The translations under genes and the position numbers were made by a program. This document shows, in pieces, positions 19,187 through 33,162 of a stretch of DNA of 64,000 bases (positions are counted from its first letter, which is position 1; each line of letters begins with the position of its first letter). This stretch comes from an uncultured Nitrososphaerota archaeon (GTDB taxonomy: Archaea > Korarchaeota > Korarchaeia > Korarchaeales > Korarchaeaceae), in NCBI GenBank assembly GCA_964618805.1, contig CAZUBM010000009.1, forward strand, positions 1-64,000. Direction: 5' to 3'. The notes beneath the pieces are model-generated. The model was given only the letters and a program-made list of their open reading frames with translations, made no database searches and was not told the DNA's origin.

Positions 19187-19341
19187 TCCTTGTATTATAG
19201 AAGCTTTCTTTCTGGTTTTCAAGTGTACCACTAAAGAACTAAAGAAGTGAACTGGTATTTTAACGTGGCCATTAACGATTAATTCAGTAAATTGATGACA
19301 TTAGCTAGCCTAATTCCCATCATTGCTCTAAGCTGGAAGAA

Positions 19342-20361
19342 TCAGGCTAAGATAAGATTAAAGATCTTCTCATATCTTGATGTTATTTGGTTCCATCCAT
19401 ATCTTTCAGCCAATTTTCTGCCTTTATTACCCATTTCCTTTCTTAGGGATTCATCGGCTATAAATAGAAGCATATACTTGACCAGTTCTCTGAAGTTATT
19501 AGCTAGAAATCCATTATATCCGTGTATAATTCTCTCAGGCATTGCTGCTCTGTTATATCCGATCACTGGTTTTGCACAAGCATTTGCTTCCAAGAAAGGC
19601 ATGCCAAAGCCCTCCCATTTAGAAGCAGATACAAAGAAAGAGCAGTTCCTGTACTCTTTAACCAGCTCCTCTTCTGATAGGGTACCGAGGAATTTCACCC
19701 TGTCTTCAATTCTAAGATTTCTAGCAAGCTTCATTAGCCTATTAAGCTCTGGTCCTCTGCCTACTATATGCAGGTCCATTTTTATAGTTGCAGTTGCAAA
19801 AATCAGTTCATGAACTCCCTTATACCAAACAAGCCTGCCAACGAATAAAGCGTATCCTTGATCCTCTCCTGGTCTGTATGTCGAGAGATCAACTCCATTC
19901 GGAATTACAACTGTTTTTAAGATGTTTCTAATCTTTTCTGCAAGATATTGACTAACTGCGATTACGAGTCGGCATTTCCTTGCTGGAATTCTCAGCAGAT
20001 TCATTATAACTTCCCTACTTGCCCATAAGATTGATGGTGTCTCTGTTTCTGGGACATCGGTCCATCCATGGAATGTCAAGACAACAGAGCTTTTGAGGAA
20101 AGGGGCATACATACAGAAGGGATAAAAATGGATGTTAACTATATCGAACTCATTTAGTTCTTTTATAAGCCGTGGGCTGGGCAGAGGGACCGGGAAACCA
20201 GAAGGATAGGCACATGGAGCTGGGGAAACCCCACGATCTTCCCCTTTGCACGCAAAAATCCTTACATCATGTCTTGTAGCTAGCCTCTTACTTAGCTCTA
20301 AGATCACCCTGTCAGGTCCTGACCCAGAGAGGAATGTATGGTTAACAAAAGAGATCTTCAT
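19342..20361 (-). CDS. GT4 glycosyltransferase
   Basis: FVGRLVWYKG and EGFGMPFLEA. Confidence 0.92.
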   Translation of the reverse strand: MKISFVNHTFLSGSGPDRVILELSKRLATRHDVRIFACKGEDRGVSPAPCAYPSGFPVPLPSPRLIKELNEFDIVNIHFYPFCMYAPFLKSSVVLTFHGWTDVPETETPSILWASREVIMNLLRIPARKCRLVIAVSQYLAEKIRNILKTVVIPNGVDLSTYRPGEDQGYALFVGRLVWYKGVHELIFATATIKMDLHIVGRGPELNRLMKLARNLRIEDRVKFLGTLSEEELVKEYRNCSFFVSASKWEGFGMPFLEANACAKPVIGYNRAAMPERIIHGYNGFLANNFRELVKYMLLFIADESLRKEMGNKGRKLAERYGWNQITSRYEKIFNLILA

Positions 20362-20415
20362 CTATCCGAAATAGTGTGGATGTTCTTTTATAACGACTGC
20401 ATAAAAACACCTTGA

Positions 20416-21480
20416 ATGAAGCTGCTGGTAGAGATCAACCACTATCCTGGAATACTTGACAGAGAATTTGATATAACCTACATAGGGCTTGGAAAGAGAG
20501 GAGAAAAAAGAGGTTTTATTACTGTAAGCTCTCGCTTCGGGGAAATTCCCCTTAGGACAGGATTAGACCACCTAGCGATAAAAGACTTAGCGAAAAAATA
20601 TCTTGACTTTGATGTCGTAATATGCACAAACCTTCCTACCATCTTAGCAGGAAAGCTAGCTAGAAAAATGGGCTTTTCTGGAAAGATAATTTTCGATGAT
20701 TACGGAGTTTGGCCATGGAAGGGCTTTTTACCATGGGGACCCTTAGCTGTTTTTTTCCCGTGCTGGGTTAGAGCGAACATAATATCTTGTAAAGAAGCAA
20801 TAGACGTTGCTGTGACTCCATCTGAATTCGAGAGACAGAATGCAATAAGAAAATACGGCTTTAAACCAGAATCTGTCCTTAAAATCCCATACACAATTGA
20901 GGATTTTTTCTCACCTTCTGTGTCCGGCAATGAGTTTAGAAGCAAGATCGGCGTAGAAGATACTGAGCTTTTAATTACTTATGCAGGAAGACTTAATCCC
21001 ACAAAGGGTATAGACAGATTGGTCAGGGCTTTATTATTAATAAGAAATGAAATTCCAAGCAGATTGCTTTTAGTAGGAAGGAATCAAAGGTTTCTTAGAA
21101 AGATCCTGAGAATAAGCAGGAGTCTTAGTGTTCTTGATAAGGTGATATACGCTGGTTTTCTGCCTCGTGAGAGAATGCCAGAAGTTTATGCGGCATCTGA
21201 CATCGTTGTTATACCATCTCTCTACGAGACGTTCTGCTTTGCTGCCTTAGAAGCGATGGCTTGTGGACGTCCTGTAATAGCTTCGAATGTAGGAAGTTTG
21301 CCTGAAGTGGTTGGAGATGCTGGAATTCTTTGCGATCCCAACCCAAAAGAACTAGCAAGCGCTATTAAGAGGCTTTGGAATGATAAAGAACTAGCGAGAG
21401 AATTGATGGAAAAAGGCCCTCAAAGAGCAAAAGAAATAAGAACGAAGGCGGAAAGAATTCTCCGGGTTCTTTCATCATGA
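20416..21480 (+). CDS. GT4 glycosyltransferase
   Basis: AGRLNPTKG and PSLYETFCFAALEAMACG. Confidence 0.92.
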   Translation: MKLLVEINHYPGILDREFDITYIGLGKRGEKRGFITVSSRFGEIPLRTGLDHLAIKDLAKKYLDFDVVICTNLPTILAGKLARKMGFSGKIIFDDYGVWPWKGFLPWGPLAVFFPCWVRANIISCKEAIDVAVTPSEFERQNAIRKYGFKPESVLKIPYTIEDFFSPSVSGNEFRSKIGVEDTELLITYAGRLNPTKGIDRLVRALLLIRNEIPSRLLLVGRNQRFLRKILRISRSLSVLDKVIYAGFLPRERMPEVYAASDIVVIPSLYETFCFAALEAMACGRPVIASNVGSLPEVVGDAGILCDPNPKELASAIKRLWNDKELARELMEKGPQRAKEIRTKAERILRVLSS

Positions 21481-21490
21481 GGGATACCTC

Positions 21491-22651
21491 TTGAAGAAGC
21501 TTCTAATGGTAGAGTACAACTTCCCGCCGAGAGTAGGAGTAGGCGTGATAAGAGCAGTTAAGATGGCAAAATATCTCCCTAATTATGGTTGGAAACCTGT
21601 AGTTCTTTCTGTAAAGCTTTCAAATGGGGCCCTAGGGTTCAAATACTTAGATGCAGAGGGTATCCCAGATTTGAAAGTCTATTATGTTAGAGAGCTGGTT
21701 CCTTTGAATAGATTAGTCAAAAGGGACATTCATCTTGGTTGGTCTCCAAGCGCTTTTCTTAAAGGGCTTAAAATAATCAAAAACGAGCAAATTAATGCAA
21801 TTTATTCCTCTTATCCCTTTGCAGCCAACATGCTCGTTGCATCTCTACTGAAGAGAGTTACTGGAATCCCTCTCTTAGTAAATTATAGAGATCTCTGGAT
21901 AAACTCCTTCTTCCCTCCCCCTCCACTTGAATTTTCTGTTCAAAAGATTATGGAGAATTTCGTCCTTAAATCATCAGATGCTATAGTAACGGTGACTCCA
22001 AGCCATATAGGGGAGCTAAAGCGGTTCTTTCCGTTTATAAAAAAGGTTAATGTAGTTAGGAATGGATACGATCCAGCAGACTTTGAGTCCGCAATTCCTG
22101 TTAAATTTTCTAAGTTCACGATTTTGCATGCTGGCGACATAGTAGGAACTAGGGTTAAGAGATTCATTGAATTTCTTTATGCCCTAAGAGAGTTTCGAGG
22201 CACGGATGACTTTCAAGTCGTGCTTCTTGGACGCGTATCTCCCAAAGTAAGGGATTTTGTAAGTAGGCTTGAAATAAATAACATTGTTAAGTTTGAGGGC
22301 AGGAAACCCCATAGAGAAGCCATTAGATGGATTTTGGGGGCAAATGTGCTTTTGCTCGTAGCAGCAGCTGAGTATATTCCCACCATGAAGCTTTATGAAT
22401 ATCTAGCGTCAGGCAACTTCATTCTCAACATAGGGTATGAGTGGGGAGAGGCCGGTAAGCTAATATCAAAGTTTAGAGCAGGTATTTCAGTTGTTCCTGA
22501 CAAAAAGGAGATTTCGAAAGCAATTAAAGACGTTGTTTACGGAGATTTGCTTGAAAAATGGGCTGGCCCAGATCGTAAAGGAATTGAAGAACTTTCTTGG
22601 CCAAAATTGGCCGAAAAACTAGCTTCAATCCTTAATTCCATAGCTAGATGA
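21491..22651 (+). CDS. GT4-like glycosyltransferase
   Basis: YNFPP, YRDLW, NGYDP and KLYEYLA motifs. Confidence 0.88.
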   Translation: MKKLLMVEYNFPPRVGVGVIRAVKMAKYLPNYGWKPVVLSVKLSNGALGFKYLDAEGIPDLKVYYVRELVPLNRLVKRDIHLGWSPSAFLKGLKIIKNEQINAIYSSYPFAANMLVASLLKRVTGIPLLVNYRDLWINSFFPPPPLEFSVQKIMENFVLKSSDAIVTVTPSHIGELKRFFPFIKKVNVVRNGYDPADFESAIPVKFSKFTILHAGDIVGTRVKRFIEFLYALREFRGTDDFQVVLLGRVSPKVRDFVSRLEINNIVKFEGRKPHREAIRWILGANVLLLVAAAEYIPTMKLYEYLASGNFILNIGYEWGEAGKLISKFRAGISVVPDKKEISKAIKDVVYGDLLEKWAGPDRKGIEELSWPKLAEKLASILNSIAR

Positions 22652-22686
22652 TCCCTCTTTGACCTTAAGGGGCAAGAACTGGGATC

Positions 22687-23427
22687 TTAAATTTTTTGAG
22701 CCAAAATCCCCAAGCCCATTGCAAGAGAAGTTCTTGTGGATAGGAGTTGATCAAGGACTCTGAGAAATGGGTTCTTAACGTCTCCTCTAAGCCCTTTTTT
22801 TGCAACGATTGAAAAGCCATTCGCTTTTAATAGGTCTTCAAGGGCTCTCAGTGTAAATAATCTGATATGGCCAGCGGGTTGGAAGCCTTGGGGGACAAAC
22901 AGATAACCAGCTGCAAATTTGGTACTGGGTTCGCTCATTAATGGCTGATAACCCAGTAAGAGTATCAATCTATTTACCCAAAAGGCTAGATTTGGGGTTG
23001 TTAGAACAAAAAAGCCATTTTTTCTAAGAATTCTATGTGTTTCACTTAGGAAGTGATCTGGATTAATAAGATGCTCCATCAGGTCAATAGCCGAAACTAA
23101 ATCAAAGCTTTCTGAGGGAAAAGGGAGTTTCTCACTACTTAGGTCTACTCTTACTATGTTTATGCCCTTCTCTTTAGCTCGTTGAAGAGCTGATTCAGAG
23201 ATATCCGCTATCCAAATTTCCTTAGCCCCAACGACTTCTGCTATGGAAAGAGTGAAGAATCCACTGGCTCCTCCAGCATCTAACATTTTATCTGCTCTGA
23301 TACCATGAGATCTCAGAAGAGAAATGATCCCTTTTCTGAATCCTTTGCAAGACCCTTGAATTCTTGTGGAATAATATCGTAATATTGCACTTTTTTCAGA
23401 TTCAAGTTTCATCTCCTTAGTCACCAA
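22687..23427 (-). CDS. Class I SAM-dependent methyltransferase
   Basis: LDAGGASG motif I, LPFPSESFD and TTPN. Confidence 0.88.
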   Translation of the reverse strand: MVTKEMKLESEKSAILRYYSTRIQGSCKGFRKGIISLLRSHGIRADKMLDAGGASGFFTLSIAEVVGAKEIWIADISESALQRAKEKGINIVRVDLSSEKLPFPSESFDLVSAIDLMEHLINPDHFLSETHRILRKNGFFVLTTPNLAFWVNRLILLLGYQPLMSEPSTKFAAGYLFVPQGFQPAGHIRLFTLRALEDLLKANGFSIVAKKGLRGDVKNPFLRVLDQLLSTRTSLAMGLGILAQKI

Positions 23428-23497
23428 GCCATCTTTTCAGTTTCATCCCAAAATATTTAGAGGATATGCTTCAGATCTGCCTTTGATTACTTGGAAA

Positions 23498-23713
23498 CTA
23501 TGAAAGATTGGTCCCTTGTTTTGGTGCTGAACTCGTTGCCATTATGTACCCTACCCAAGCTATCAAACAAAACAGAACTGATATAGCCACAAAAGCTGTA
23601 ACTTTCAGCACCAAGAAGCTGTATTTGCTGAAAAACAACAGCCAGCCAGAGACTATGATAGCTATCAATGAGATCACCACAAGTCCCAAGCCAATCAGCC
23701 TTTCATCAGTCAT
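23498..23713 (-). CDS. Small 2-TM archaeal membrane protein (possible DPM2-like)
   Basis: Two TMs, IGLGLVVISLI and WVGYIMAT. Confidence 0.65.
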   Translation of the reverse strand: MTDERLIGLGLVVISLIAIIVSGWLLFFSKYSFLVLKVTAFVAISVLFCLIAWVGYIMATSSAPKQGTNLS

Positions 23714-23817
23714 TTTCCACTAATTGCGTTTTGGAATCGATATAAAGCTTTGCGAGCCTTACAACAGGGATAGGCAAGATCCATAATAGCCAGCTCAAAT
23801 CTTTTTACATATATAGA

Positions 23818-24429
23818 GTGTCTTTATGGTGGAAAATGAGCGACCTAAGCGTCGTTGGAGTGGACTTAGCTGGAAATGAGGATAGACCTACTGGCATTTG
23901 CTTCCTAACTGGGAAAAAATTCACAACTAGAGTAGCCTATGGGGATGAGGAGATCTTAGAAGAGATAGTAAGCTTTAACCCGATGGTAGTGGCCATAGAT
24001 GCCCCTCTTTCCCTGCCTATTGGAAAGACATTAGATTCACGCTACTGCATTAGAAAGTGTGATGAAGAGCTGAGGAAGTTTGGCATCAAGTTCTTTTCGT
24101 TAAACTTCGCAGGAATGAGGAAGCTCACCATAAGGGGCATTAGACTTAGAAAGACCTTGGAAGAAAAGGGAGTAAAGGTTATAGAGACCTATCCAGGTGC
24201 CTTTTATGATTTAATGGGCCTATCTAGGCCAAAAAACAAGAAAGAAAGGAGGCAAGTGCTAAAAGCGTTGATTAAAGGGTTTGGCTTAAATGACCCCATT
24301 AATGATCTGAGTTCTCATGAACTAGATTCCATAGTCTGTGCTCTTGTGGGTTTACTTTATTTGGAAGGAAAAGTTATCTTACTTGGAGATCCTAAAGAAG
24401 GTATTATGGTGCTTCCTAGGCTTTCTTGA
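23818..24429 (+). CDS. DUF429 RNase H-fold predicted nuclease
   Basis: GVDLAG, AIDAPLSLP, IETYPG and HELDS..CA motifs. Confidence 0.85.
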   Translation: MSLWWKMSDLSVVGVDLAGNEDRPTGICFLTGKKFTTRVAYGDEEILEEIVSFNPMVVAIDAPLSLPIGKTLDSRYCIRKCDEELRKFGIKFFSLNFAGMRKLTIRGIRLRKTLEEKGVKVIETYPGAFYDLMGLSRPKNKKERRQVLKALIKGFGLNDPINDLSSHELDSIVCALVGLLYLEGKVILLGDPKEGIMVLPRLS

Positions 24430-24433
24430 GAGA

Positions 24434-25168
24434 TTATGGCCTCAATTCGATTTTAATATATTTTAGGATGATCCAATATCCCTTCTTTATTACACCCAGG
24501 AAATCATTGATTAGAATCCAGAGTTCTAATGGTAGGGGCTGGAATATATTCAAGCAGGATAAAATGCCAACGTTAGGCATGTACTTCTTCTTTGTCAATC
24601 TATAGCATGAAGGAAGAAGTTCTGTCACTTTGTGTTCATCCAAACTACGGAGGTGTCCCCATAATGGGGTTAGTTTGCCGCAATGAATGCATTGGGTGAA
24701 TTGTATCCTTTCTCTGTAAGGTACCGAGATCAATAAGGTCCCTCCAGTTCTTAGAACCCGATCTGTTTCCTTGATTCCTTCGCTTAATGATTCTTCTGGT
24801 AAATGCTCTAAAATCTCCAACAAACACACAGCGTCAAAAGAATGATCCCTAAAGGGTAGGTATTCTATTGTCGCATGAACGAAATCTGCCTGCTTCACCC
24901 TTTTTCTTGCCACAGTAAGGCTGTGAATATTCGGCTCGACGCCCACCGCATAATCAGATACTTGAGAAATGAAGCTTGTGATGAAGCCCTCACCACAACC
25001 GATGTCTAACACCTTTCCAGGTCTTTCTTTCAAGTATTTACTAACGATTTGTGCTCTCCTTAGTTGTCTATGTAGTTGCTTACCTTTTTTCTTCCATATG
25101 TTTTGAATCAATTCGGTTCCTTTAGCTTCACAAATCCATGGTTTTAATCTTAATTCTTGAAAAGCCAA
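24434..25168 (-). CDS. Class I SAM-dependent methyltransferase with a CxxC insert
   Basis: VLDIGCGEG, EILEHL and CIHCGKLTP. Confidence 0.88.
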   Translation of the reverse strand: MAFQELRLKPWICEAKGTELIQNIWKKKGKQLHRQLRRAQIVSKYLKERPGKVLDIGCGEGFITSFISQVSDYAVGVEPNIHSLTVARKRVKQADFVHATIEYLPFRDHSFDAVCLLEILEHLPEESLSEGIKETDRVLRTGGTLLISVPYRERIQFTQCIHCGKLTPLWGHLRSLDEHKVTELLPSCYRLTKKKYMPNVGILSCLNIFQPLPLELWILINDFLGVIKKGYWIILKYIKIELRP

Positions 25169-25288
25169 ACAAGAAATCTTTCAAGCCTTCAAGTGATTTT
25201 TCGATAGGCCTCGTGAGTTTAGATTGTGAAAGATTTAGGTCCGCAGGATTTTGGCAGGTTAAATTTTTCTCAACAAGATAATCTCCAA

Positions 25289-25690
25289 ATGAAGGCAGAG
25301 GTAAATTGGATTGAGGAATTGATGTTTCTGGGAAGGAGTGGTTCAAATCACTTGGTTCCAATAGAGCCGACAACGAAGAACAGGATAGGAGGAGCACCCA
25401 GTCCAATGGAGTACATCCTCATAGCGCTTGGAGGATGCACAGGCGTCGATGTGGTCTCCCTTTTGAAGAAATGGAAAGTTCCACTCAAGTCTTTGAAAAT
25501 AGAGATTTCTGCAGAGAGAAGAGATGAATTTCCAAGGGTCTTCTCCAAGACAAAGTTGAGGTACGTGGCTTCAGGAGTAAAGGGGGAGGACCTTAGAAGG
25601 GCGATAGAGGAATCCATGCAGAAATTTTGCTCAGTTTCCGCGATACTAGGCTCTGTTGCCGAAATAGAATATGAATACCGGATTGAATGA
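25289..25690 (+). CDS. OsmC/Ohr-family protein
   Basis: PSPMEYILIALGGCTGVDV and KFCSVS. Likely start is ATG 25289. Confidence 0.88.
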   Translation: MKAEVNWIEELMFLGRSGSNHLVPIEPTTKNRIGGAPSPMEYILIALGGCTGVDVVSLLKKWKVPLKSLKIEISAERRDEFPRVFSKTKLRYVASGVKGEDLRRAIEESMQKFCSVSAILGSVAEIEYEYRIE

Positions 25691-25702: not shown

Positions 25703-27124
25703 TCAACGCACAACGTCCTTGATCTTCACCGGACTCATGGGACAAAGCGGATCTGGGACTCCAACCTTCATCTTCCCGTATGCGGCAACTATGCGGAAAT
25801 AGCAAAGCTTACCGGCGCCAACGCACCTCTCAAAGGCCTCGCAGGAATAACAGGGAGATCCCTTGAATTTCTCCCTCTCAAAAGTAGCTAATATTTCATT
25901 TATCCTGCTTGAGTTCCAGGCCTCAACTATAGATTGTTTTGAAAGGTCCCCGTAGATAAAGTCAGGATTCACTCCAAGCCTCTCGCATATCGTCACCCTT
26001 CCGTCAGGCAGGATTATCATTCCCAAGGTTATCCCTCCGCAACCGGGAGCTCCCTCGATGCTTAGTCCTGAAAGAAGTCCTTCTATGCTCTTTGGCCTAT
26101 GGAGCACGGCACCGTTTTCCATAACCTCTTCCTCGATCTCGTCAAGCTCTGAGATTAGCTGCTCATACTGCTTTATTGTTGGGAAGAGGTCGTCTCTTGG
26201 CTTATAGATCGAGAGAGAATATGGGCTAAGGTTTATTTCACTAACGCCTTGTTCTGAAAGCCATTTCGCAAGCTTAGGAACTCCAGATATGTTGAGAGAG
26301 CATATAACTGTGTTTGTGGAAACTTTTAGGCCTTCCTTGAGGAATAGGCGAATTGCCCTTACCATCCTCTCGTGCGAACCAACCCTTTGCGTTAGCATAT
26401 CTTGAAGCTTTGGATCAAGGGCATCGATGCTAACCTGCATAGCATCCATTCCAACATCAGCTATGCGTCGAACAAGTTCCTCCGTAACGGGCCAGCCCTT
26501 TGTGCTGGTGTGCGGGTAAACTCCTACATCCAAAGCTATCTTTGCGATCTCCGGGAAATCCTTCCTTAAAAGGGGTTCTCCCCCAGCCAAATAAACGTCG
26601 CTCATTCCCAGGCTTCCAGCTTCCTCGAATATCTCCTTTATCCTCTTAAGTCCTAGTGTTTTCTCAGGATCCGAGGCGTTTATCTTGTCAGCATAGCAAT
26701 AAATGCAGTCAAGCGGGCATCTCCTTGTAAGGATTAGAGCAAGTCTTAAGGGAGCTTTATAGCGAATTAGCCCTCCCTTAGGCTTCTTTGGCTTGTATAT
26801 GAAATCTTGAGGGTTATACCTTCTTTGAGGAGGAATTTTCTCATTTCTTAGCTCTATTAGGTCCGAAAATTCGTTTAAAACAGAATTAACAGCTTCTTCT
26901 GCTTCTTCTACGGAGGAATTGAAGACGTAAGCGACTGCCTCTATGAGTTCTTTAACATTGGCGGAACCATCCATTAATGAGAGTATAACAGCTTTTGGAG
27001 GTCCAACTATCCTAAACTCAGGCCTTTCCCCCACTTCATAAATAACAACTCCAAATTCCTCTTTTCTAAGCCTTACTTCTTTTCTTAAACAGGGAAAAAG
27101 AAGGGAAGGTGGGTTTTTGTTCAA
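25703..27124 (-). CDS. Radical SAM/SPASM peptide maturase with an N-terminal PqqD/RRE domain
   Basis: N-terminal ~95 aa is PqqD-like (ILSLMDGSANVKELIEAV). Also CPLDCIYC, GGEP and SPASM cysteines (CGG..PDGRVTIC..CYSCEAFERC..C..DPLCP). Confidence 0.92.
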   Translation of the reverse strand: MNKNPPSLLFPCLRKEVRLRKEEFGVVIYEVGERPEFRIVGPPKAVILSLMDGSANVKELIEAVAYVFNSSVEEAEEAVNSVLNEFSDLIELRNEKIPPQRRYNPQDFIYKPKKPKGGLIRYKAPLRLALILTRRCPLDCIYCYADKINASDPEKTLGLKRIKEIFEEAGSLGMSDVYLAGGEPLLRKDFPEIAKIALDVGVYPHTSTKGWPVTEELVRRIADVGMDAMQVSIDALDPKLQDMLTQRVGSHERMVRAIRLFLKEGLKVSTNTVICSLNISGVPKLAKWLSEQGVSEINLSPYSLSIYKPRDDLFPTIKQYEQLISELDEIEEEVMENGAVLHRPKSIEGLLSGLSIEGAPGCGGITLGMIILPDGRVTICERLGVNPDFIYGDLSKQSIVEAWNSSRINEILATFEREKFKGSPCYSCEAFERCVGAGKLCYFRIVAAYGKMKVGVPDPLCPMSPVKIKDVVR

Positions 27125-27138
27125 TCAATGTCCCCTTT

Positions 27139-27276
27139 CTAATCGGGACTGTACTTTATTATAATACAAGCTACAGGACATACGTCCGTAACATCTACTC
27201 CTCCGCCGTCATTAAGCTTTAGACCTGCAGCTATTATTCCCCTCCTAATTCTATCCAACTCTTCCTTTGTAATCAT
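27139..27276 (-). CDS. Putative RiPP precursor peptide, 45 aa (absent from the ORF track)
   Basis: Hand translation gives MITKEELDRIRRGIIAAGLKLNDGGGVDVTDVCPVACIIIKYSPD*. A GAGGTG RBS lies 7 nt before the ATG, and the stop is 14 nt before the rSAM start. Confidence 0.8.
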   Translation of the reverse strand: MITKEELDRIRRGIIAAGLKLNDGGGVDVTDVCPVACIIIKYSPD

Positions 27277-27367
27277 GTTTCAGCACCTCGGAATTGTTAT
27301 TAGTTTAGAACTAGTACAATCTTGATAGAGATGATTAATTAGTATTATATTCAGTAGCGTACTCTTG

Positions 27368-27387: not shown

Positions 27388-27522
27388 TATTTACTTCTAC
27401 CTTTTATGCGTTTCTTTACCCATGAAACAGGATGAAACATTCTAATAATGACAACGAAATCTAGAAAGCATTATTTTGTTTTTTAGATTGGTTTTTATTT
27501 TATTCATTAACTACCTGATTGT

Positions 27523-28620
27523 ATGACTTCCGAAGCACGTGCTCGCATACTTGACAAGATAATAAGACCGCAGGACTGGAAAGCTGTCAAAATTTACTCT
27601 GCTGTTCCTAAAGCAACAGAAGCTACCATAGAATTAGAGGAGCGTGTGATGGAAGCACTTATCAGATATTTAATAAGATTTAGAATGGAACCTGAGAAGA
27701 TAACCCTGAGGGGAATAGAAAGGGGTCTCGGCCTCAGTTATTCAAAGGCTAGGCGATTATTGAAAAAACTCGTTGACAGTGAAATTGTTATTAGTTGGCC
27801 CATGGGTAAACAAGTTGTTTTTCTTGTAGCAGATTTAGAGAGAGCTATCCGCGAAGGATATCTTGCTCTAGATAAAGAAGAAATACGTCTATTATCACTT
27901 TTACTTTCATTAGGCGAGCTGGAAGAGCAAATTGGAAGTACAATTCTTGCACTCCCTAAGATATTAACTTTTCCGGGCGTATATTTCAAGGGATTGAATG
28001 CTCTCACCGAATCTTGGTTAGCTTCGCTAGAAGCAAGTAAGTACATACTAGAATTGAAGAAGAAGGGGTCTTCTATTAGTGGAGTACCGACGCATTTGCT
28101 GAATCTTATAGATAAATATAAGGAGTTCGAAGAATTCGAAAGGTTTGTCGGGCAGGTTCCATTAACCGTTATTCCTGTTTATAGATCTATCGTAGTTCCA
28201 GGTATGAAAGATGTTATAAGCAGGATGAGAAGCGAGTTTGGGATAAAAGAGGATCTGAGAGTTAGATTAAAAAATCTCCACCCAATGGCTTATGGAATCC
28301 TAATGAGAGAGCTTTTCTTTGAGCTAGATTGCAACAAAAATCCATCTGAGGAGGAGGTAAAAGTAGCAATGAAAAGGCTCTCAGAGAAACAGCTAAAATT
28401 AATTCTCTATATAGAAGAACCTATCCTTAACAAAATAAGACAAGGCAATTTCACAGAAGAATATTCGGTTGAGGCATTATTGTACGAGGCAATTGTCCTG
28501 AGGCTTGCTGCTGTCTTTGCCTTAAATCTGGGCGCTGATGATCAACTTGTACGGGAAGCTAGAGAAGCAGCTGAACTCTTAGAAAGCACTGCAGAGGAGT
28601 TGAGAACAAGAATTGGATAG
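27523..28620 (+). CDS. wHTH-containing putative regulator with a large uncharacterised C-terminal domain
   Basis: ITLRGIERGLGLSYSKARRLLKKLVDSEIVISWPMGKQVVFLV is a wHTH. Confidence 0.7.
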   Translation: MTSEARARILDKIIRPQDWKAVKIYSAVPKATEATIELEERVMEALIRYLIRFRMEPEKITLRGIERGLGLSYSKARRLLKKLVDSEIVISWPMGKQVVFLVADLERAIREGYLALDKEEIRLLSLLLSLGELEEQIGSTILALPKILTFPGVYFKGLNALTESWLASLEASKYILELKKKGSSISGVPTHLLNLIDKYKEFEEFERFVGQVPLTVIPVYRSIVVPGMKDVISRMRSEFGIKEDLRVRLKNLHPMAYGILMRELFFELDCNKNPSEEEVKVAMKRLSEKQLKLILYIEEPILNKIRQGNFTEEYSVEALLYEAIVLRLAAVFALNLGADDQLVREAREAAELLESTAEELRTRIG

Positions 28621-28942
28621 AGAAGTAAGTAAATACGACTACAGGGTCATATATTCGCTTAGAAGAAGCTGGATCCGTAGAAACGTTTTAAAATTCCTAG
28701 TTTCGATACATCCAGAACCATCCTACCCTCAAGAAATTGCAAGAAGAATCGGTGCAAGAAGCACAGATGTCTTAGGTGCTTTAAGAGGATCCAGTAAGAG
28801 GTACAAGCCAACTTTCTCCCTCATAAAGTTAGGACTAGTTGAAGTTCTATCATCAGATGACTGGCCCAGAAAGCTTTACAGGGCCACAGAATTAGGTATA
28901 AAGGTTTGGAGGGAATTTGTAGAAGAATCTCAAACTAGTTAG
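28613..28942 (+). CDS. EarA-family (DUF1495) winged-helix transcriptional activator
   Basis: SLRRSWIRRNVLKFL..SYPQEIARR..DVLGALRG..RY...SLIKLGLVE matches the EarA family pattern as recalled. Confidence 0.8.
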   Translation: MDREVSKYDYRVIYSLRRSWIRRNVLKFLVSIHPEPSYPQEIARRIGARSTDVLGALRGSSKRYKPTFSLIKLGLVEVLSSDDWPRKLYRATELGIKVWREFVEESQTS

Positions 28943-31134
28943 ATCGACTCCTTTTTCTCCTTTATCTGATCATTTAACTCATCTAGTTCCTTTTCCAACT
29001 CTTTTAGGGCTTCATAAAGTTGTCTCCTCATCTCTCTGTTCATTCTCACCCTTAACAAGGCTATTAGGGGGATTGTAAGGAGAATTGGGCCCAAGATGAA
29101 GTAAATGTAACTCATCCCTCTTTCTTCAGGAACAACCTCTACCTCTGGAGGAGGAGTTTCCCCAACATATTCTTCGGTTAGATTCATGTTTAGGGCAATG
29201 TAAGGATTATCAACCTTAGTTATCATCCTTACCTTTGGGATCTCAACTGAACCGCAGATTTGATCTATTTTACACGTCACTTCAGGAGTGGATTTAGAAT
29301 CAACGATTATCCTGAACTTATTTTTCATTAGATCAATTAAGGGATTTGAACCGTTGTTAAGAGCCTCTCCGGGCTTATAGAGCAAAACTCCAAGCTCATC
29401 GTCATACTTGACCCCTAAGGATGTCTCATTAACATCAACCCATTTCCCATTCTCATAGACTTGTACTTTCACAGCTCCTTCTGGAGGAGTCCTCATAATG
29501 CCGTCATACTCTCCAAACATCTGTAGGGCTATTTCTGAAGCATTTATAGAGGTCCCCTCCAAGATCAAGAAAGATATTGCCCATACTCCATCAGAAATTT
29601 CGGACAATTCAGCGCTTACTCTTGCTTCTGTACAGCTAGAGTTCCTTAGTTCAACGTCGCCGAGAAACGGCTCTCTAAGTCTTGTGATCTGAACCTTTCT
29701 GGAGAGATCTTCCATCTCAGACCTCATTTCTGAGATCTTGGAGTCTATGTCCTTGATAGACGCATCTATAACTTGCAAAGACGCATCTGTGATGGCTTCA
29801 ACATATGTAAGGGATTCTTGTAATTCGCCTAATGCTAAGGACGCGTTATATGCATAGTCTGCAGCTTCTGAAAGAGATGTCTGCATAGTCTCAAATGCCT
29901 TATCTGCTGCCGAAAGACTTGACCTCGTCGACCTAATCCTGGACATTATCTTTGATAGTTCTCCTTTAAATGAGAAGTTGAGGGTTGGAATGGGGATTGT
30001 TAAGTTTGGGATGGAAATGTTTGTTACTTGTCCGAATTTGCTTTGAATTTCCTCAATAATTTCCATCATCCTCATTAGATTGGATTCTAAGGAAGATAGA
30101 ACAGAATTGACTCTTTTTAATGGAGATCTTGCGCTTTGAACCGAGATAGAAGCGTCTCTAAGTGATTCGGATAGTTCAATGAGTTCCAGCTGAGCTTCAT
30201 CAAGGTTCTGGCTTGCTTCAGCGATCCCATCAGAGAACTCTGACATTAATTTTTTCATATTTGTCATCGATTCTTTCATGGTCTCAAGCTCATCTATTGA
30301 GGTATTATATGATTTTAAGGCCTCCTCTAGTTGATCTGCTATTGAAGAGGCATCCAGTTGAAGCTGTATTCGAACTGCTTTTAGCTCCACTTCTCCCACG
30401 TATTCTGTACTCCTAGCCTTAGCAGATAAGGAGATGTTCAAGAATTCGTCCTCAAGCATCCCAATCCAAGTGATAGACCATTCATCTGACAGAGAATATA
30501 TCATGTAGGGCTCTGGATTACATTCTGGCTCCAAGAAATTGTTCTTAGGGATCCTCATCTCTATGGAGTAGGGAAGAGGAGGCCTTAGCACTTCTCCTTC
30601 TACGTATTTTGGGTCCCTCAGGTTCCTTACTGTGAGGTTAATTGCGAACACGTCTCCTGAATTTACTACTATGTAGTAATCCCCCTCAAGCTCTATTGGT
30701 TGGACCTTCTCCCCGTTAACATAGTAACTAATGTTGGCCAAGATGGGAGGAAGTTTAAAGGTTGAAACAGAATACCTAAGCTCCAAATCCGAGGAAGGGG
30801 GTATGACGAGGTCCTTCCAAACACAAACAAGGTGATCAAAGAAAACCTCCAAAGAAGAAGGCTCTGGGGAACCAGATAGGATGCTAAAGCTCTCAATTTG
30901 ACCCTCTGAAATCCTGTCAACTATAGTTATTGCTTTCTCCTCTTCACTAGGGTTTTCAACCCTTATGGTAACCTCAGCCTCTCCATTTGATATCGTTCCA
31001 TCGGGCAAAAGCTTGTAGTAAACGTTTTCCAGCTTTGATAATTTGATTTCCGTAGGGTCTGCTTTTACAAGCGATGTTTGGAGACAGAACAGTAGTGCGG
31101 CCATTGTAACAGCCATGATGTTTTTCTTATTCAT
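28939..31134 (-). CDS. Secreted coiled-coil protein with a C-terminal TM anchor (ABC exporter partner)
   Basis: Signal peptide, long central heptad region, TM YIYFILGPILLTIPLIALL and a cytoplasmic coiled-coil tail. Coupled to the ATPase gene. Confidence 0.8.
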   Translation of the reverse strand: MNKKNIMAVTMAALLFCLQTSLVKADPTEIKLSKLENVYYKLLPDGTISNGEAEVTIRVENPSEEEKAITIVDRISEGQIESFSILSGSPEPSSLEVFFDHLVCVWKDLVIPPSSDLELRYSVSTFKLPPILANISYYVNGEKVQPIELEGDYYIVVNSGDVFAINLTVRNLRDPKYVEGEVLRPPLPYSIEMRIPKNNFLEPECNPEPYMIYSLSDEWSITWIGMLEDEFLNISLSAKARSTEYVGEVELKAVRIQLQLDASSIADQLEEALKSYNTSIDELETMKESMTNMKKLMSEFSDGIAEASQNLDEAQLELIELSESLRDASISVQSARSPLKRVNSVLSSLESNLMRMMEIIEEIQSKFGQVTNISIPNLTIPIPTLNFSFKGELSKIMSRIRSTRSSLSAADKAFETMQTSLSEAADYAYNASLALGELQESLTYVEAITDASLQVIDASIKDIDSKISEMRSEMEDLSRKVQITRLREPFLGDVELRNSSCTEARVSAELSEISDGVWAISFLILEGTSINASEIALQMFGEYDGIMRTPPEGAVKVQVYENGKWVDVNETSLGVKYDDELGVLLYKPGEALNNGSNPLIDLMKNKFRIIVDSKSTPEVTCKIDQICGSVEIPKVRMITKVDNPYIALNMNLTEEYVGETPPPEVEVVPEERGMSYIYFILGPILLTIPLIALLRVRMNREMRRQLYEALKELEKELDELNDQIKEKKESI

Positions 31135-32018
31135 ATCTCATCCAGCCTCCTTCTAATCCTTCTAACTCCCATTTTTACCCTCAAAACTGCATTTCTAAGC
31201 TCTTTTACCCTCATCTTCTTTGTCTTCATTTCTTGCAATTGAGAAGCGAGTTCCTCTATCTCCTTTTCAAGCTCAGAAAGCAATCTAACCCTATCTTCCA
31301 CGCTTTTAATCTCCCCGAAGGTTGGGATTTTGCTTGGATCCTCGTAAAGCCTGCCATCAACCATATAAAGAGTTTTTCTAGTCCTTTTTGCCACATTTGC
31401 GTCGTGAGTGACTATTATGAAGGTCTTCCCAGTCTCTCTGTTAAGCTCTTCCATTAGAGAGATTACCTCGGATCCAGTTTTCGAATCAAGGTTACCAGTA
31501 GGCTCATCAGCCAGAACCAGCGCTGGATCGTTTGCTAAAGCCCTTGCAATCGCAACTCTCTGCTGTTGACCTCCTGATAGTTCAGAAGGTCTATGATCTG
31601 CTCTATCAAGAAGTCCTACAAGATCTAAAAGTTCTAGAGCCCTATCCCTGATTTCCCACTCAGAAAGCTTTCCAGCAAAGATCATAGGTAATTCAACGTT
31701 CTCTAGAGCTGTTAGAGTTGGGATTAAGTTGAAAAATTGGAAGACGAACCCAATTTTATGGCATCTTATGTCAGAAAGCTCTGCTTCACTCATATCTGTC
31801 ACATCTACACCATCTATAAGGACTCTTCCGCTTGTAGGCTTGGCCAAACATCCTATTACGCTCAAGAGCGTGGTTTTCCCTGATCCAGATGGTCCTATCA
31901 CGGATGTAAATTCTCCAGGCATTACTTTGAGAGAAACGTGATCTAAAGCTCTAACTTCTGTTGAGCCAAGGGTATAGATCTTGCTAACGCTTCTTAGTTC
32001 TACTACCGGATTACTCAT
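31131..32018 (-). CDS. ABC transporter ATP-binding protein (MacB/LolD-type)
   Basis: GPSGSGKT, LSGGQQQRV, ADEPTGNLD and VTHD, plus a C-terminal coiled-coil extension. Confidence 0.95.
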   Translation of the reverse strand: MSNPVVELRSVSKIYTLGSTEVRALDHVSLKVMPGEFTSVIGPSGSGKTTLLSVIGCLAKPTSGRVLIDGVDVTDMSEAELSDIRCHKIGFVFQFFNLIPTLTALENVELPMIFAGKLSEWEIRDRALELLDLVGLLDRADHRPSELSGGQQQRVAIARALANDPALVLADEPTGNLDSKTGSEVISLMEELNRETGKTFIIVTHDANVAKRTRKTLYMVDGRLYEDPSKIPTFGEIKSVEDRVRLLSELEKEIEELASQLQEMKTKKMRVKELRNAVLRVKMGVRRIRRRLDEI

Positions 32019-33162
32019 ATCTTATCGCCTCTATAGGCCTGACGTTTGCTCCCTTCCAAGATGGATAGAAACCAGCTATCATTCCAAGGAGGACGGATAG
32101 AGCTATTGGGCCAAATATAAGGGCTGGGAAAACCTTGTAAGGCGTTGGAAATCCTATCATTTTTGGGATAATCTCACTAGCGATTTTCGCTAGGATGACC
32201 CCTCCTATGGCACCAAGAATTCCACCAACAAAGCTAGTTATCATGGCCTCTGTGAGGAATATGGTTAAGACATGGGATCTTTTTGCTCCGATAGCCTTCA
32301 TTATGCCTATTTCCCTTATCCTTTCTAGAACAGATACCATAGTTGTGTTCATTATGCCTAGGCCGCCTATTAAGAGAGAAATGGATCCTATCGCAAGTAA
32401 AACGCTGTTAAGCATGTCAAGAACCTTTCCAACGTTCTCAGATATTTGTTCAGGTTCAACTACGTCTAGATCGCCGTATCTTTTCTCCACTTTCTCCTTA
32501 AATGATTCTCCAAGCCTTGGATCCCTTAGCTTAACCATGATCATCGAGATCTTTCCTCTCTTGTGCACAATCTCCTGCAATTCTTTGAGATCCATGTAAC
32601 ATCCTATGTCTACTATGCTTCCTGTGGGTTCAAGGATTCCGGTGACCACGAACACTTTCCCCGGTTCATCAGATGATGCGCTTATCCTCACGCTTTCTCC
32701 AACCTTTAGCTTCAACTGATCGGCAAGGTTGCTTCCAACGACTATTTTTCCCTTGTCTCCTTCTTTAAATGCCTTTCCCTCCTTTAGGGGGATATATATG
32801 ATCTCATACGTGTCAGATGTAATTCCAAGTGCCCATGCAAACTCCCCGTTTATGAAAACCATCTGGGAGAGGACAGGTCCTGCTGCATCTACTTCAGCGT
32901 AAAGCTTAATCTGCTTCACTAGCCTCTCCGGAAGCTCTGCTTGCATTTCTCCTGCTGCTTTTGAAGTTATCATGAAGTCAGTGGTCTCACTGAGGAAACT
33001 AACTGCTTGTTCTTTTGCCCCATAGGCAACCGAAACTAAGGCAACAATAGTAGCTATTCCTACTGCAACTCCCAGGAGCGTTAAAGCTGTTCTGAACCTT
33101 CTCCTTCCAAAGTTCCTAAATGCCAGTTTAAATGCTGTCTTCAGTATTCTTAACGGAATCAT
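32011..33162 (-). CDS. ABC transporter permease (MacB/FtsX family)
   Basis: RTALTLLGVAVG, VLERIREIGIMKAIGA and PIEAIRYE. Confidence 0.95.
   Translation of the reverse strand: MIPLRILKTAFKLAFRNFGRRRFRTALTLLGVAVGIATIVALVSVAYGAKEQAVSFLSETTDFMITSKAAGEMQAELPERLVKQIKLYAEVDAAGPVLSQMVFINGEFAWALGITSDTYEIIYIPLKEGKAFKEGDKGKIVVGSNLADQLKLKVGESVRISASSDEPGKVFVVTGILEPTGSIVDIGCYMDLKELQEIVHKRGKISMIMVKLRDPRLGESFKEKVEKRYGDLDVVEPEQISENVGKVLDMLNSVLLAIGSISLLIGGLGIMNTTMVSVLERIREIGIMKAIGAKRSHVLTIFLTEAMITSFVGGILGAIGGVILAKIASEIIPKMIGFPTPYKVFPALIFGPIALSVLLGMIAGFYPSWKGANVRPIEAIRYE

What the first reader, a model, noticed from the sequence alone, without database searches (positions are those of the whole stretch)
25703..27276. 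Candidate archaeal RiPP system: hidden 45-aa precursor directly upstream of an RRE-radical SAM-SPASM maturase
Seen: an ORF missed by the track (27276-27139, minus strand) encodes MITKEELDRIRRGIIAAGLKLNDGGGVDVTDVCPVACIIIKYSPD. It has a GAGGTG RBS and ends 14 nt before a 473-aa rSAM with an N-terminal PqqD-like domain and a full SPASM cysteine set. Established: a short peptide next to an RRE-rSAM-SPASM enzyme is the architecture of sacti/ranthipeptide and cyclophane RiPP clusters. The segment ITKEELDRIRRG resembles the double-glycine leader consensus LSxxELxxIxGG, and a GGG precedes the C-terminal part. Inference: the core VDVTDVCPVACIIIKYSPD (CxxxC, Asp/Thr, Lys-Tyr) is crosslinked through thioethers or an aromatic C-C bond. 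I do not recognise it as SCIFF, PqqA or MftA, and few rSAM RiPPs are characterised in archaea.
Basis: partly seen in the sequence, partly recalled or inferred. Interest (0 to 1): 0.88.

Follow-up and report, generated by a model that had tools for sequence, protein, structure and literature searches.

The report
Archaeal radical-SAM peptide gene cluster
A small conserved peptide gene sits directly in front of a peptide-modifying radical SAM enzyme in an uncultured hot-vent archaeon. Together with two regulator-like genes and a transporter it looks like a new family of a known kind of peptide natural-product cluster, whose chemistry is still untested.

Summary
Window 27139-27276(-) encodes a 45-aa peptide with a GAGGTG ribosome-binding site. 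It ends 14 nt before a 473-aa enzyme (25703-27124, -) that has a CX3CX2C radical SAM core and a 7-Cys SPASM domain.

The peptide is a real gene. Eight distinct variants keep TDVCPVAC..K[YF].P, and core pN/pS is about 0.1-0.3. A sister genus has two CxxCC peptides in the same place.

The enzyme's N-terminal domain folds as an RRE; the best structural matches are PqqD and TbiB1. The co-fold of enzyme and peptide scores 0.70 against 0.01 for the best control.

New here: an orphan 365-aa winged-helix protein and an EarA-like regulator are conserved with the pair in both genera, with an ABC transporter nearby. Relatives at about 30% identity, many apparently bacterial, also carry upstream Cys-rich peptides (31 of 55 loci, against 5 of 55 antisense).

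No curated family cut-off is reached. Thioether crosslinking is the likeliest chemistry but is untested. Archaeal rSAM RiPP clusters have already been predicted in bulk, so this is a well-defined new member, not a new kind.

The parts
27139..27276 (-). Precursor peptide gene, 45 aa. The leader is about residues 1-26: an [DE][DE]Lxx[IL][RK]..I...GLKL segment followed by an NDGGG hinge. The core is residues 27-45: VDVTDVCPVACIIIKYSPD.
   Evidence: Searches give the ORF. Core pN is 0.046-0.184 against pS 0.30-0.67. It is a single copy in its own genome.
27284..27289 (-). GAGGTG Shine-Dalgarno-like site, 7 nt upstream of the peptide ATG.
   Evidence: Purine-rich equivalents occur in the orthologues.
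27344..27365 (-). Conserved promoter block. It holds a 10-bp palindrome (AGAGTACTCT in the relatives, one mismatch here, 27356-27365) directly upstream of a TATA-like GAATATAAT (27344-27352).
   Evidence: The block is invariant in the intergenic alignment of 4 orthologous loci. The exact palindrome occurs in the 111 fetched loci only in L002, L103, L006 and L022. Within the window it is not enriched: 3 matches against 3.0 expected. Its role as an operator or promoter is inferred.
25703..27124 (-). RRE-radical SAM-SPASM maturase, 473 aa, TTG start.
   Evidence: Pfam. The AlphaFold2 model has pLDDT 89. Best fold matches are SuiB, SkfB, PqqE and CteB. The N-terminus is conserved from residue 1 in the orthologues.
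26846..27097 (-). RRE (PqqD-like winged helix), residues about 10-93: four strands and three helices.
   Evidence: The model of residues 1-112 has pLDDT 88. Foldseek top hits are PqqD 5sxy, TbiB1-leader complexes 5v1v/5v1u, 6jx3 and SuiB (E 2e-3 to 2e-2, prob 0.98-1.00), then the PbtF RRE (E 3.5e-2, prob 0.97). Pfam PqqD matches 6 of 17 N-terminal domains of relatives, best 5.8e-06, and the window copy at 19.6 bits against a 23.4-bit cut-off.
26696..26719 (-). CX3CX2C motif (C136, C140, C143) for the SAM-binding [4Fe-4S] cluster.
   Evidence: Invariant in 16 of 16 sequences.
25742..26041 (-). SPASM domain with seven invariant Cys (C362, C380, C425, C428, C434, C441, C461).
   Evidence: In the co-fold the core peptide contacts residues 360-367, 380-382 and 433-443.
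27523..28620 (+). Orphan 365-aa protein, divergently transcribed. It has a probable winged helix-turn-helix near residues 53-85 and a large C-terminal domain of unknown family. It is co-conserved with the peptide/rSAM pair.
   Evidence: Found in 7 of 43 genomes of the phylum, only in the two genera that have the cluster, and always beside it where the contigs allow. Only 11 clusters exist in 5.8 billion proteins, none with an informative name (10 unnamed, one 'hypothetical protein, partial'). There are 47 representatives at E<=1e-3. HTH hits are weak.
28613..28942 (+). EarA-like winged-helix regulator, 109 aa, overlapping the end of the 365-aa gene by 8 nt.
   Evidence: Pfam EarA 4.6e-24. The same gene follows the 365-aa homologue in G002 (L103) and in the sister genus (L104:2058-2402, 1.7e-22).
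28939..33162 (-). Possible export module on the same strand, upstream of the peptide: a 731-aa protein of unknown family, an ABC ATPase (31131-32018) and a MacB/FtsX-type permease (32011-33162).
   Evidence: Pfam. A homologue of the 731-aa protein lies in the same position in G002. The sister genus instead has an ABC ATPase and an ABC-2 permease directly after the rSAM. The link to the peptide is inferred.

Best explanation
This is a peptide natural-product (RiPP-type) gene cluster of an uncultured Thermoproteota-like archaeon from a hydrothermal setting.

Proposed mechanism:
1. The 45-aa peptide and the enzyme are probably co-transcribed from a conserved TATA-type promoter.
2. The enzyme's N-terminal RRE binds the peptide's leader, roughly residues 7-21.
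3. The invariant core TDVCPVAC is fed into the cavity between the SAM-binding cluster and the first auxiliary cluster of a 7-Cys SPASM domain.
4. The most likely chemistry, at roughly even odds, is the sacti/ranthipeptide type. A 5'-deoxyadenosyl radical abstracts a hydrogen from a neighbouring residue, and one or both Cys sulfurs form thioether crosslinks.
5. The product is probably exported by a nearby ABC transporter.
6. The cluster is probably controlled by the two co-conserved winged-helix proteins, the orphan 365-aa protein and the EarA-like protein.

Shown: the gene, its conservation, the domain folds and the conserved gene set.
Predicted: binding of peptide to enzyme.
Inferred: the chemistry, export, leader removal and regulation.
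For: The peptide is a real, selected gene:
- 4 of 4 close loci with upstream sequence carry it 14 nt before the enzyme.
- 8 distinct variants keep TDVCPVAC, a Lys and a Pro.
- Core pN is 0.046-0.184 against pS 0.30-0.67. Leader pN is 0.13-0.38 against pS 0.51-1.03.

The cluster is homologous across genera:
- 3 of 3 sister-genus loci with upstream sequence (L004, L007, L023) have two small ORFs, ending ..C[SA][AF]CCL.., in front of a 34%-identical enzyme.
- Both genera also keep the 365-aa protein and an EarA-like gene.
- The rSAM is found in 7 of 43 genomes of the phylum, in 2 of 10 genera.

The enzyme is built like a peptide maturase:
- RRE fold.
- The full-length model is closest to SuiB (TM 0.70/0.75, E 3e-19), then SkfB, PqqE and CteB.
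- The sequence profile hits PqqE at 9.8e-33 and SkfB at 2.4e-25. It hits SuiB at 1.2e-19 over profile positions 6-438, which include the N-terminal domain.

The co-fold supports binding:
- Score 0.70, best of 3 controls 0.01.
- The mark was reached by 58 of 80 solved complexes and 2 of 110 mismatched pairs. These counts hold only roughly because my own alignments were used.
- The runs agree in at least 59% of their contacts, and partner pLDDT is at least 67.
- Leader residues 7-21 sit on enzyme residues 39-46, 63-70 and 105-115. Core residues 32-38 sit by residues 360-367, 380-382 and 433-443.

Distant relatives behave the same way:
- 31 of 55 dereplicated metagenome loci have a sense-strand small ORF with CxxC/CxxxC in its C-terminal half within 500 nt upstream. 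The antisense control gives 5 of 55.
- Several of these (L028, L030, L035) share the [DE]Lxx[IL][KR]...GL leader.

A 7-Cys SPASM domain is also what QhpD, CteB and Tte1186 have, all three grouped with thioether-forming maturases in that paper (passage read in PMC10352776).
Against: - No modification has been observed, and no RNA data exist for this locus.
- The co-fold could be echoing solved RRE-leader and SuiB/CteB-substrate complexes. It shows likeness, not binding.
- The closest solved enzymes by sequence (PqqE) and by fold (SuiB) make C-C bonds, not thioethers.
- No acceptor residue is conserved between the two genera. Thr and Asp lie upstream of the Cys pair in this genus, while the sister genus has a C-terminal GGGTLI tail.
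- Neither a protease nor a PCAT-type transporter was seen among the neighbours scanned.
- The MacB-type transporter is separated from the pair by two genes on the other strand.
- Pairwise peptide similarity to distant relatives is weak (BLASTP E 0.022 for one comparison).
- Pfam PqqD is below its cut-off for the window copy.
- In 24 of 55 distant loci my simple screen found no upstream Cys ORF.
Confidence: 0.6

Rival explanations
1. Same architecture, different chemistry. The enzyme modifies the peptide, but not through thioethers. Candidates are a carbon-carbon crosslink (as made by SuiB or PqqE), epimerisation of the hydrophobic run after the second Cys, or a still undescribed reaction on the CxxxC unit.
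For: The nearest solved relatives are PqqE by sequence (9.8e-33; NCBIfam PqqE is the top hit at 116.8 bits) and SuiB by fold. Both form C-C bonds. No acceptor residue is conserved across the two genera. An aromatic residue (Tyr in 5, Phe in 3 of 8 variants) and an invariant Lys follow the Cys pair in this genus.
Against: The only core feature shared by both genera and by the distant relatives is the pair of Cys four residues apart (invariant C33 and C37 in the 16-sequence alignment). The aromatic residue and the Lys are absent from the sister-genus cores. The SPASM domain has seven Cys, the count reported for QhpD, CteB and Tte1186 (PMC10352776 passage).
Confidence: 0.25
2. The peptide is the scaffold of a peptide-derived cofactor or redox molecule used inside the cell, in the manner of PQQ or mycofactocin. 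It would not be an exported natural product.
For: The core is more conserved than the leader, as in single-product cofactor systems. PqqE and MftC are among the best NCBIfam hits. No peptidase was seen in the neighbourhood. An OsmC-like peroxidase gene lies convergent to the enzyme here and in G002.
Against: Scores are far below the family cut-offs: PqqE 116.8 against 381 bits, and MftC 94.2 against 265 bits. The core differs strongly between the two genera. The sister-genus cluster has an ABC ATPase and an ABC-2 permease directly after the enzyme. The distribution is patchy: 7 of 43 genomes, and 0 of 21 in the largest genus. The enzyme carries a frameshift in G009 and is reduced to a remnant in G012, which is unlike an essential cofactor pathway.
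Confidence: 0.06
3. The small ORF is not the substrate. It would be a regulatory upstream ORF or an unrelated small protein, and the enzyme would act on something else.
For: No experimental link exists. Small ORFs are common by chance (62 ORFs of 30 aa or more in 9 kb).
Against: There is purifying selection on the amino-acid sequence, strongest in the C-terminal core. Homologous Cys peptides lie upstream of enzymes at only 30-34% identity. The enzyme has an RRE fold. The co-fold score is 0.70 against 0.01 for the best control.
Confidence: 0.05

Closest known systems
Sactipeptide and ranthipeptide systems (for example CteB/CteA SCIFF, PapB/freyrasin, SkfB/SkfA)
   Same: A short Cys-bearing precursor lies next to an RRE-rSAM-SPASM enzyme. 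The SPASM domain has 7 Cys. CteB and SkfB are among the best fold and sequence matches. The predicted position of the Cys core is beside the auxiliary-cluster cysteines.
   Different: Curated cut-offs are not reached: PapB 60.3 against 340 bits, and StsB 57.2 against 625 bits. The precursor matches no curated peptide model. There is only one CxxxC unit and no conserved acceptor. The host is archaeal. The cluster is accompanied by an orphan winged-helix protein and an EarA-like regulator.
SuiB/SuiA (streptide Lys-Trp crosslink)
   Same: It is the best full-length structural match (TM 0.70/0.75, E 3e-19). The sequence profile aligns from the N-terminal RRE through the SPASM domain (positions 6-438).
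   Different: Identity is only 16%. SuiA has no Cys chemistry, and the peptide here has no Trp.
PqqE/PqqA and MftC/MftA (peptide-derived cofactors)
   Same: PqqE gives the best sequence scores (PDB 9.8e-33; NCBIfam 1e-33).
   Different: Scores are far below the equivalog cut-offs. The RRE is fused here rather than being a separate PqqD or MftB protein. From memory, PqqA has an E..Y motif and MftA a C-terminal Val-Tyr, and neither is present here.
CrpC/CrpA of Methanococcus voltae
   Same: It is an archaeal SPASM rSAM enzyme with a predicted RRE that installs ranthionine crosslinks on a Cys-rich substrate encoded in the same cluster (PMC13692751; abstract and section list read).
   Different: According to that abstract the substrate is a large Cys-rich protein, not a 45-aa peptide, and the host is a methanogen. 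I did not compare the sequences.
CXXX-repeat peptide systems (NCBIfam TIGR04115 maturase; TIGR04114, TIGR04117 and TIGR04118 targets)
   Same: Distant relatives of the enzyme sit beside peptides with repeated CxxxC units. These peptides weakly resemble the target models (0.0012-0.059, below the cut-offs). The window core looks like a single such unit.
   Different: TIGR04115 does not hit the window enzyme at E 1e-5. None of 8 relatives scanned reaches any curated family.

Membership tests
RRE-dependent rSAM-SPASM peptide maturases (general class) | CX3CX2C radical SAM core | tested here: met
   Pfam Radical_SAM 1.4e-27. C136, C140 and C143 are invariant in 16 of 16 sequences.
RRE-dependent rSAM-SPASM peptide maturases (general class) | C-terminal SPASM domain with 7-8 Cys for two auxiliary clusters | tested here: met
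   Pfam SPASM 2.3e-08. Seven Cys are invariant.
RRE-dependent rSAM-SPASM peptide maturases (general class) | PqqD-like RRE (three strands and three helices) that binds the leader | tested here: met
   The fold is met. The model has pLDDT 88, and the top Foldseek hits are PqqD, TbiB1 and SuiB, followed by the PbtF RRE. Pfam PqqD is sub-threshold for the window copy (17 and 19.6 bits against 23.4) and matches 6 of 17 relatives. Binding is only predicted.
RRE-dependent rSAM-SPASM peptide maturases (general class) | Conserved adjacent precursor peptide | tested here: met
   4 of 4 close loci and 3 of 3 sister-genus loci with upstream sequence carry one. Among distant loci the figure is 31 of 55, against 5 of 55 antisense.
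RRE-dependent rSAM-SPASM peptide maturases (general class) | The enzyme modifies the peptide | not testable with these tools
   This needs co-expression and mass spectrometry.
Sactipeptides / ranthipeptides | Cys sulfur linked to an alpha (sacti) or beta/gamma (ranthi) carbon of another residue | not testable with these tools
   Two invariant Cys are present. No chemistry has been observed.
Sactipeptides / ranthipeptides | Maturase belongs to a curated thioether-maturase family (PapB NF047865, StsB NF045574) | tested here: not met
   60.3 against 340 bits, and 57.2 against 625 bits.
PQQ (PqqE/PqqA) | PqqE equivalog score | tested here: not met
   TIGR02109 gives 116.8 bits against a 381.35-bit cut-off.
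Mycofactocin (MftC/MftA) | MftC equivalog score | tested here: not met
   TIGR03962 gives 94.2 bits against a 265-bit cut-off.
CXXX-repeat peptide maturase (TIGR04115) | Family model score over 350 bits | tested here: not met
   There is no hit to the window gene at E 1e-5. Three other genes of the genome hit weakly.
Double-glycine (LSxxELxxIxGG) leader | GG directly after the ELxxI helix, conserved in orthologues | tested here: not met
A GG is conserved in 7 of 8 variants about 10 residues further on, just before the core. Textbook ELxxIxGG leaders do occur in distant relatives, apparently bacterial, such as L040, L059 and L081. The consensus itself is recalled from memory.
EarA-like regulators (PF07381) | Pfam score over the cut-off | tested here: met
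   84.5 bits against a 22-bit cut-off for window 28613-28942. Orthologues score 86 and 79.5 bits.

The most novel reading that the evidence does not exclude
The cluster may be a peptide-signalling circuit rather than an antibiotic cluster. In this reading the rSAM-crosslinked peptide is exported by the ABC transporter. It is then sensed, directly or after re-import, by the orphan 365-aa protein, which has a winged helix and a large domain of unknown family. That protein, together with the EarA-like regulator, would act on the conserved palindrome next to the TATA box of the peptide promoter. This would be a quorum-sensing-like, receptor-plus-peptide module in thermophilic archaea, loosely comparable in layout to bacterial HTH-plus-helical-repeat peptide receptors.
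Probability: 0.1. Interest if true: 0.85.

Novelty: new member of a known kind. Interest (0 to 1): 0.5.

Why it matters
Radical SAM peptide clusters have been predicted in archaea in bulk by antiSMASH. According to the passages I read in PMC12144867, only haloarchaeal lanthipeptides had been validated by 2025. One methanogen enzyme, CrpC, followed in 2026 (PMC13692751 abstract).

This locus offers a compact case that can be tested:
- A 45-aa substrate with an invariant 8-residue core.
- A single enzyme from a hot-vent archaeon, which may therefore be thermostable (an inference from habitat, not tested).
- Natural variants from two genera.
- A conserved set of accessory genes, including an orphan regulator-like family that is found almost only beside this cluster.

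It also links the archaeal system to a large uncurated group of enzymes, many apparently bacterial, that sit beside CxxxC-repeat peptides. I found no characterised chemistry for that group in the papers I read.

Tried and rejected
Things that led nowhere:
- RNA evidence: the look-up of sequencing runs listed 10 DNA-type runs and no RNA holder, so I did not lay reads.
- Protein atlas look-ups gave only generic rSAM/SPASM clusters for the enzyme and sub-0.9 HTH leads for the 365-aa protein.
- A PDB profile search with the 365-aa family gave nothing below E 0.039.
- Pfam and NCBIfam gave no hit for the peptide.
- The sigma-70 promoter and terminator scan does not apply to archaeal promoters, and I did not use it.
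- The palindrome is not enriched in the window: 3 matches against 3.0 expected. Its only support is conservation among orthologues.

An error of mine: the first pN/pS run compared L006 out of register by one codon. Those L006 rows are wrong and were replaced.

Ideas considered and rejected:
- Membership of PQQ, mycofactocin, PapB, StsB or CXXX-repeat families, because the scores are far below the cut-offs.
- A canonical double-glycine leader at residues 2-13, because it is not conserved.

Not done:
- I built no tree of the enzymes.
- Supplements of the cited papers were not available. The archaeal cluster lists in the supplements of PMC12144867 and the rSAM compendium of PMC10288494 may already contain this locus.

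Literature:
- Four searches were run (plus in-paper term searches).
- None turned up this peptide family, but the searches were by keyword and not by sequence.
Full report
**What is there.**
- GAGGTG lies 7 nt before the ATG. The stop is followed by 14 nt, containing GGGGA, and then by the TTG start of a 473-aa ORF, 25703-27124(-).
- Pfam gives Radical_SAM 1.4e-27 and SPASM 2.3e-08, but PqqD only 0.0078 (17 bits, cut-off 23.4).
- No NCBIfam model comes near its cut-off. The best hits are PqqE (116.8 of 381 bits), GeoRSP (111.1 of 400) and MftC (94.2 of 265).
- An ORF of this size is not evidence by itself: 62 ORFs of 30 aa or more overlap the 9 kb around it.

**The peptide is a real gene.**
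- A search of 41 related genomes found close copies of the enzyme in three genomes of the same genus (86%, 86% and 78% identity). It found 34-36% copies in three genomes of a second genus. The remaining matches are paralogous rSAM families.
- Where upstream DNA exists, the peptide is there, in 4 of 4 loci, always 14 nt before the enzyme. This holds for the window, L002, L006 and the metagenome contig L022. In G004 the contig starts inside the enzyme.
- A profile of these four found five further peptide clusters, plus the window's own, among 5.8 billion proteins. None carries a name or a Pfam family.
- The eight distinct variants share [DE][DE]Lxx[IL][RK]..I...G[LI]KL, then GG in 7 of 8, then an invariant TDVCPVAC, three aliphatic residues, Lys, Tyr (5) or Phe (3), one residue, and Pro.
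- For the three colinear pairs, core pN is 0.046-0.069 against pS 0.30-0.52. Leader pN is 0.13-0.34 against pS 0.53-0.70.
- Against L006, after correcting a one-codon offset, core pN is 0.14-0.18 against pS 0.51-0.67.
- The enzyme itself shows pN 0.05-0.13 against pS 0.56-0.73.
- The peptide is a single copy in its genome.

**The second genus.**
- Three of three loci with upstream sequence (L004, L007, L023) carry two small ORFs in front of the enzyme. Their tails contain CSACC or CAFCC followed by L(L)AGGG(G)TLI.
- The two Cys four residues apart are the only core feature shared with the window peptide.

**The enzyme is built like a peptide maturase.**
- In 16 aligned homologues the CX3CX2C Cys and seven C-terminal Cys are invariant.
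- Residues 1-112 fold with pLDDT 88 into four strands and three helices.
- The best Foldseek matches are PqqD (5sxy), the lasso RRE TbiB1 bound to its leaders (5v1v, 5v1u), 6jx3 and SuiB, followed by the PbtF RRE. E-values are modest (2e-3 to 3.5e-2), probabilities are 0.97-1.00, and target-normalised TM for the single-domain RREs is up to 0.73.
- Pfam PqqD matches 6 of 17 N-terminal domains of relatives, best 5.8e-06.
- The full-length model (pLDDT 89) is closest to SuiB (E 3e-19, TM 0.70/0.75), then SkfB, PqqE and CteB.
- A sequence profile hits PqqE at 9.8e-33 and SkfB at 2.4e-25. It hits SuiB at 1.2e-19 across positions 6-438 and CteB at 1.3e-12.

**Predicted binding.**
- The co-fold of the whole enzyme with the peptide, both given as alignments, scored 0.70. 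The best of three controls scored 0.01.
- That mark was reached by 58 of 80 solved complexes and 2 of 110 mismatched pairs. The counts hold only roughly because I supplied my own alignments.
- The runs agree in at least 59% of their contacts, and partner pLDDT is at least 67.
- Leader residues 7-21 touch enzyme residues 39-46, 63-70 and 105-115. Core residues 32-38 touch residues 360-367, 380-382 and 433-443, the surroundings of C362, C380, C434 and C441.
- Solved RRE-leader and SuiB/CteB-substrate complexes exist, so this pass may partly reflect likeness to them. It supports binding but does not show it.
- Assigning those Cys to the first auxiliary cluster, with an open site for a substrate Cys, rests on my recollection of the SPASM literature. 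It also rests on the statement that QhpD, CteB and Tte1186 have seven SPASM Cys (passage in PMC10352776).

**A larger conserved cluster.**
- The divergently transcribed 365-aa protein (27523-28620) has no Pfam or NCBIfam hit.
- Searching the 43 genomes of the phylum found it in 7, only in the two genera that have the enzyme.
- In the second genus it lies just after the enzyme. The order there is peptide, peptide, rSAM, ABC ATPase (PF00005), ABC-2 permease (PF01061), then a 341-350-aa homologue.
- In both genera it is followed by an overlapping EarA-like winged-helix gene.
- The family is tiny. It has 11 clusters in 5.8 billion proteins: 10 unnamed and one labelled only 'hypothetical protein, partial'. 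In the 1.84-billion representative set it has 47 members at E<=1e-3, 34 at 1e-10 and 9 at 1e-30.
- Weak but repeated winged-helix hits fall at residues about 53-85. HTH_IclR matches 3 of 7 members, best 2.3e-4. Two more distant homologues just reach the HTH_IclR cut-off.
- In the window, a 731-aa protein, an ABC ATPase and a MacB/FtsX permease lie on the peptide's strand just beyond the two regulator-like genes. The 731-aa homologue keeps this position in G002.
- The cluster is patchy: the enzyme is in 7 of 43 genomes, and in 0 of 21 genomes of the largest genus.
- It also decays. The enzyme is split over two reading frames in G009, and only a 157-aa C-terminal remnant is left in G012.

**Promoter region.**
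- The 246-bp intergenic region aligns across four orthologous loci. One block is invariant: AGAGTAC.CTA.TGAATATAA...TAATT.
- Its first ten bases form a perfect palindrome in three relatives and carry one mismatch here (27356-27365).
- The GAATATAAT that follows is a plausible archaeal TATA box, about 70 nt before the ATG.
- Any function for this block is inferred.

**Wider family.**
- The enzyme has few close relatives: 37 proteins at E<=1e-30 among the 8000 candidates scored.
- A metagenome scan returned 80 loci, mostly at 27-32% identity, some from gut samples.
- Of 55 dereplicated loci with 500 nt upstream, 31 have a sense-strand small ORF with CxxC/CxxxC in its C-terminal half. The antisense control gives 5 of 55.
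- Many of these are CxxxC repeats behind ELxxIxGG leaders. Others (L028, L030, L035) have a leader like the archaeal one, although one pairwise comparison gives only E 0.022.
- None of 8 such enzymes reaches a curated family, and their peptides match the CXXX-repeat target models only below the cut-offs. TIGR04115 does not hit the window enzyme.

**Organism and literature.**
- Two public records with the 86% copy are titled as a Thermoproteota MAG and an uncultured Nitrososphaerota MAG.
- The runs that hold the DNA are labelled hydrothermal vent metagenomes.
- Passages of PMC12144867 say that antiSMASH predicts rSAM-type (ranthipeptide, sactipeptide) clusters across archaeal phyla. They also say that only two haloarchaeal lanthipeptides had been validated in earlier work.
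- The abstract of PMC13692751 reports ranthionine crosslinks made by CrpC in a methanogen.
- A passage of PMC13635244 calls ranthipeptides 'only recently reported in archaea'.
- PMC10288494 does not mention archaea in its main text.
- Supplements were closed, so this locus may already be listed there.

**Verdict.**
- The chemistry is open. I put a thioether at about even odds, another rSAM reaction on the same peptide at about one in four, and a cofactor role or a non-substrate ORF at about one in twenty each.
- This is a new, uncurated family within a known kind of system. Its added interest comes from the archaeal, probably thermophilic host and from the co-conserved orphan regulator-like pair.

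Noticed in passing
L106 1737-1850 (+) and 1889-3325 (+) (= G000 contig C19): The same genome has a second PqqD-rSAM-SPASM enzyme of 478 aa (PqqD 33.6 bits, above the cut-off). A 37-aa Cys-rich ORF ends 38 nt before it (core CGKCYGCFCCF). The peptide was found in 1 of 26 genomes searched, its own only.
   Followed up: partly
L105 1771-3213 (-) (= G000 contig C1): A third PqqD-rSAM-SPASM enzyme of 480 aa (PqqD 35.5 bits). I saw no convincing Cys peptide upstream. Similar 484-aa proteins occur in G002 and G004.
   Followed up: partly
L108 1-1211; L111 502-975: The cluster is decaying in the sister genus. The enzyme is split over two reading frames in G009, which could be a frameshift or an assembly error. 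In G012 only a 157-aa C-terminal remnant is left, although the transporter and the 341-aa homologue remain.
   Followed up: partly
window 27356-27365 and 27344-27352: A 10-bp palindrome (perfect in three relatives, one mismatch here) abuts a TATA-like box in the peptide promoter. This is the most conserved stretch of the intergenic region and a candidate operator for the winged-helix proteins.
   Followed up: partly
window 25226-25690 (+): An OsmC-like gene (Pfam 2.6e-14) lies convergent to the enzyme, with the ends of the two ORFs nearly touching. A 139-aa ORF on the opposite strand occupies the same position in G002 (L103 5426-5845), but I did not scan it. I did not see such a gene in the sister-genus clusters.
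   Followed up: no
window 18104-25168: An island of four GT4-type glycosyltransferases, two class I methyltransferases and a DUF429 protein lies next to the cluster. It is probably cell-surface glycan synthesis, and no link to the peptide has been shown.
   Followed up: no
L040, L043, L062, L064 and others (metagenome loci, some from gut samples): Enzymes of about 500 aa at roughly 30% identity, apparently bacterial, sit beside peptides with ELLHILGG-type leaders and KCGDGCRKACK.GCK cores. Neither the one such enzyme scanned (L064) nor its peptide reaches a curated NCBIfam family.
   Followed up: partly
window 27422-27439: A tandem ATGAAACA..ATGAAACA repeat with 10-nt spacing lies in the divergent intergenic region. 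The same octamer, inverted, overlaps the peptide start codon (27275-27282).
   Followed up: no
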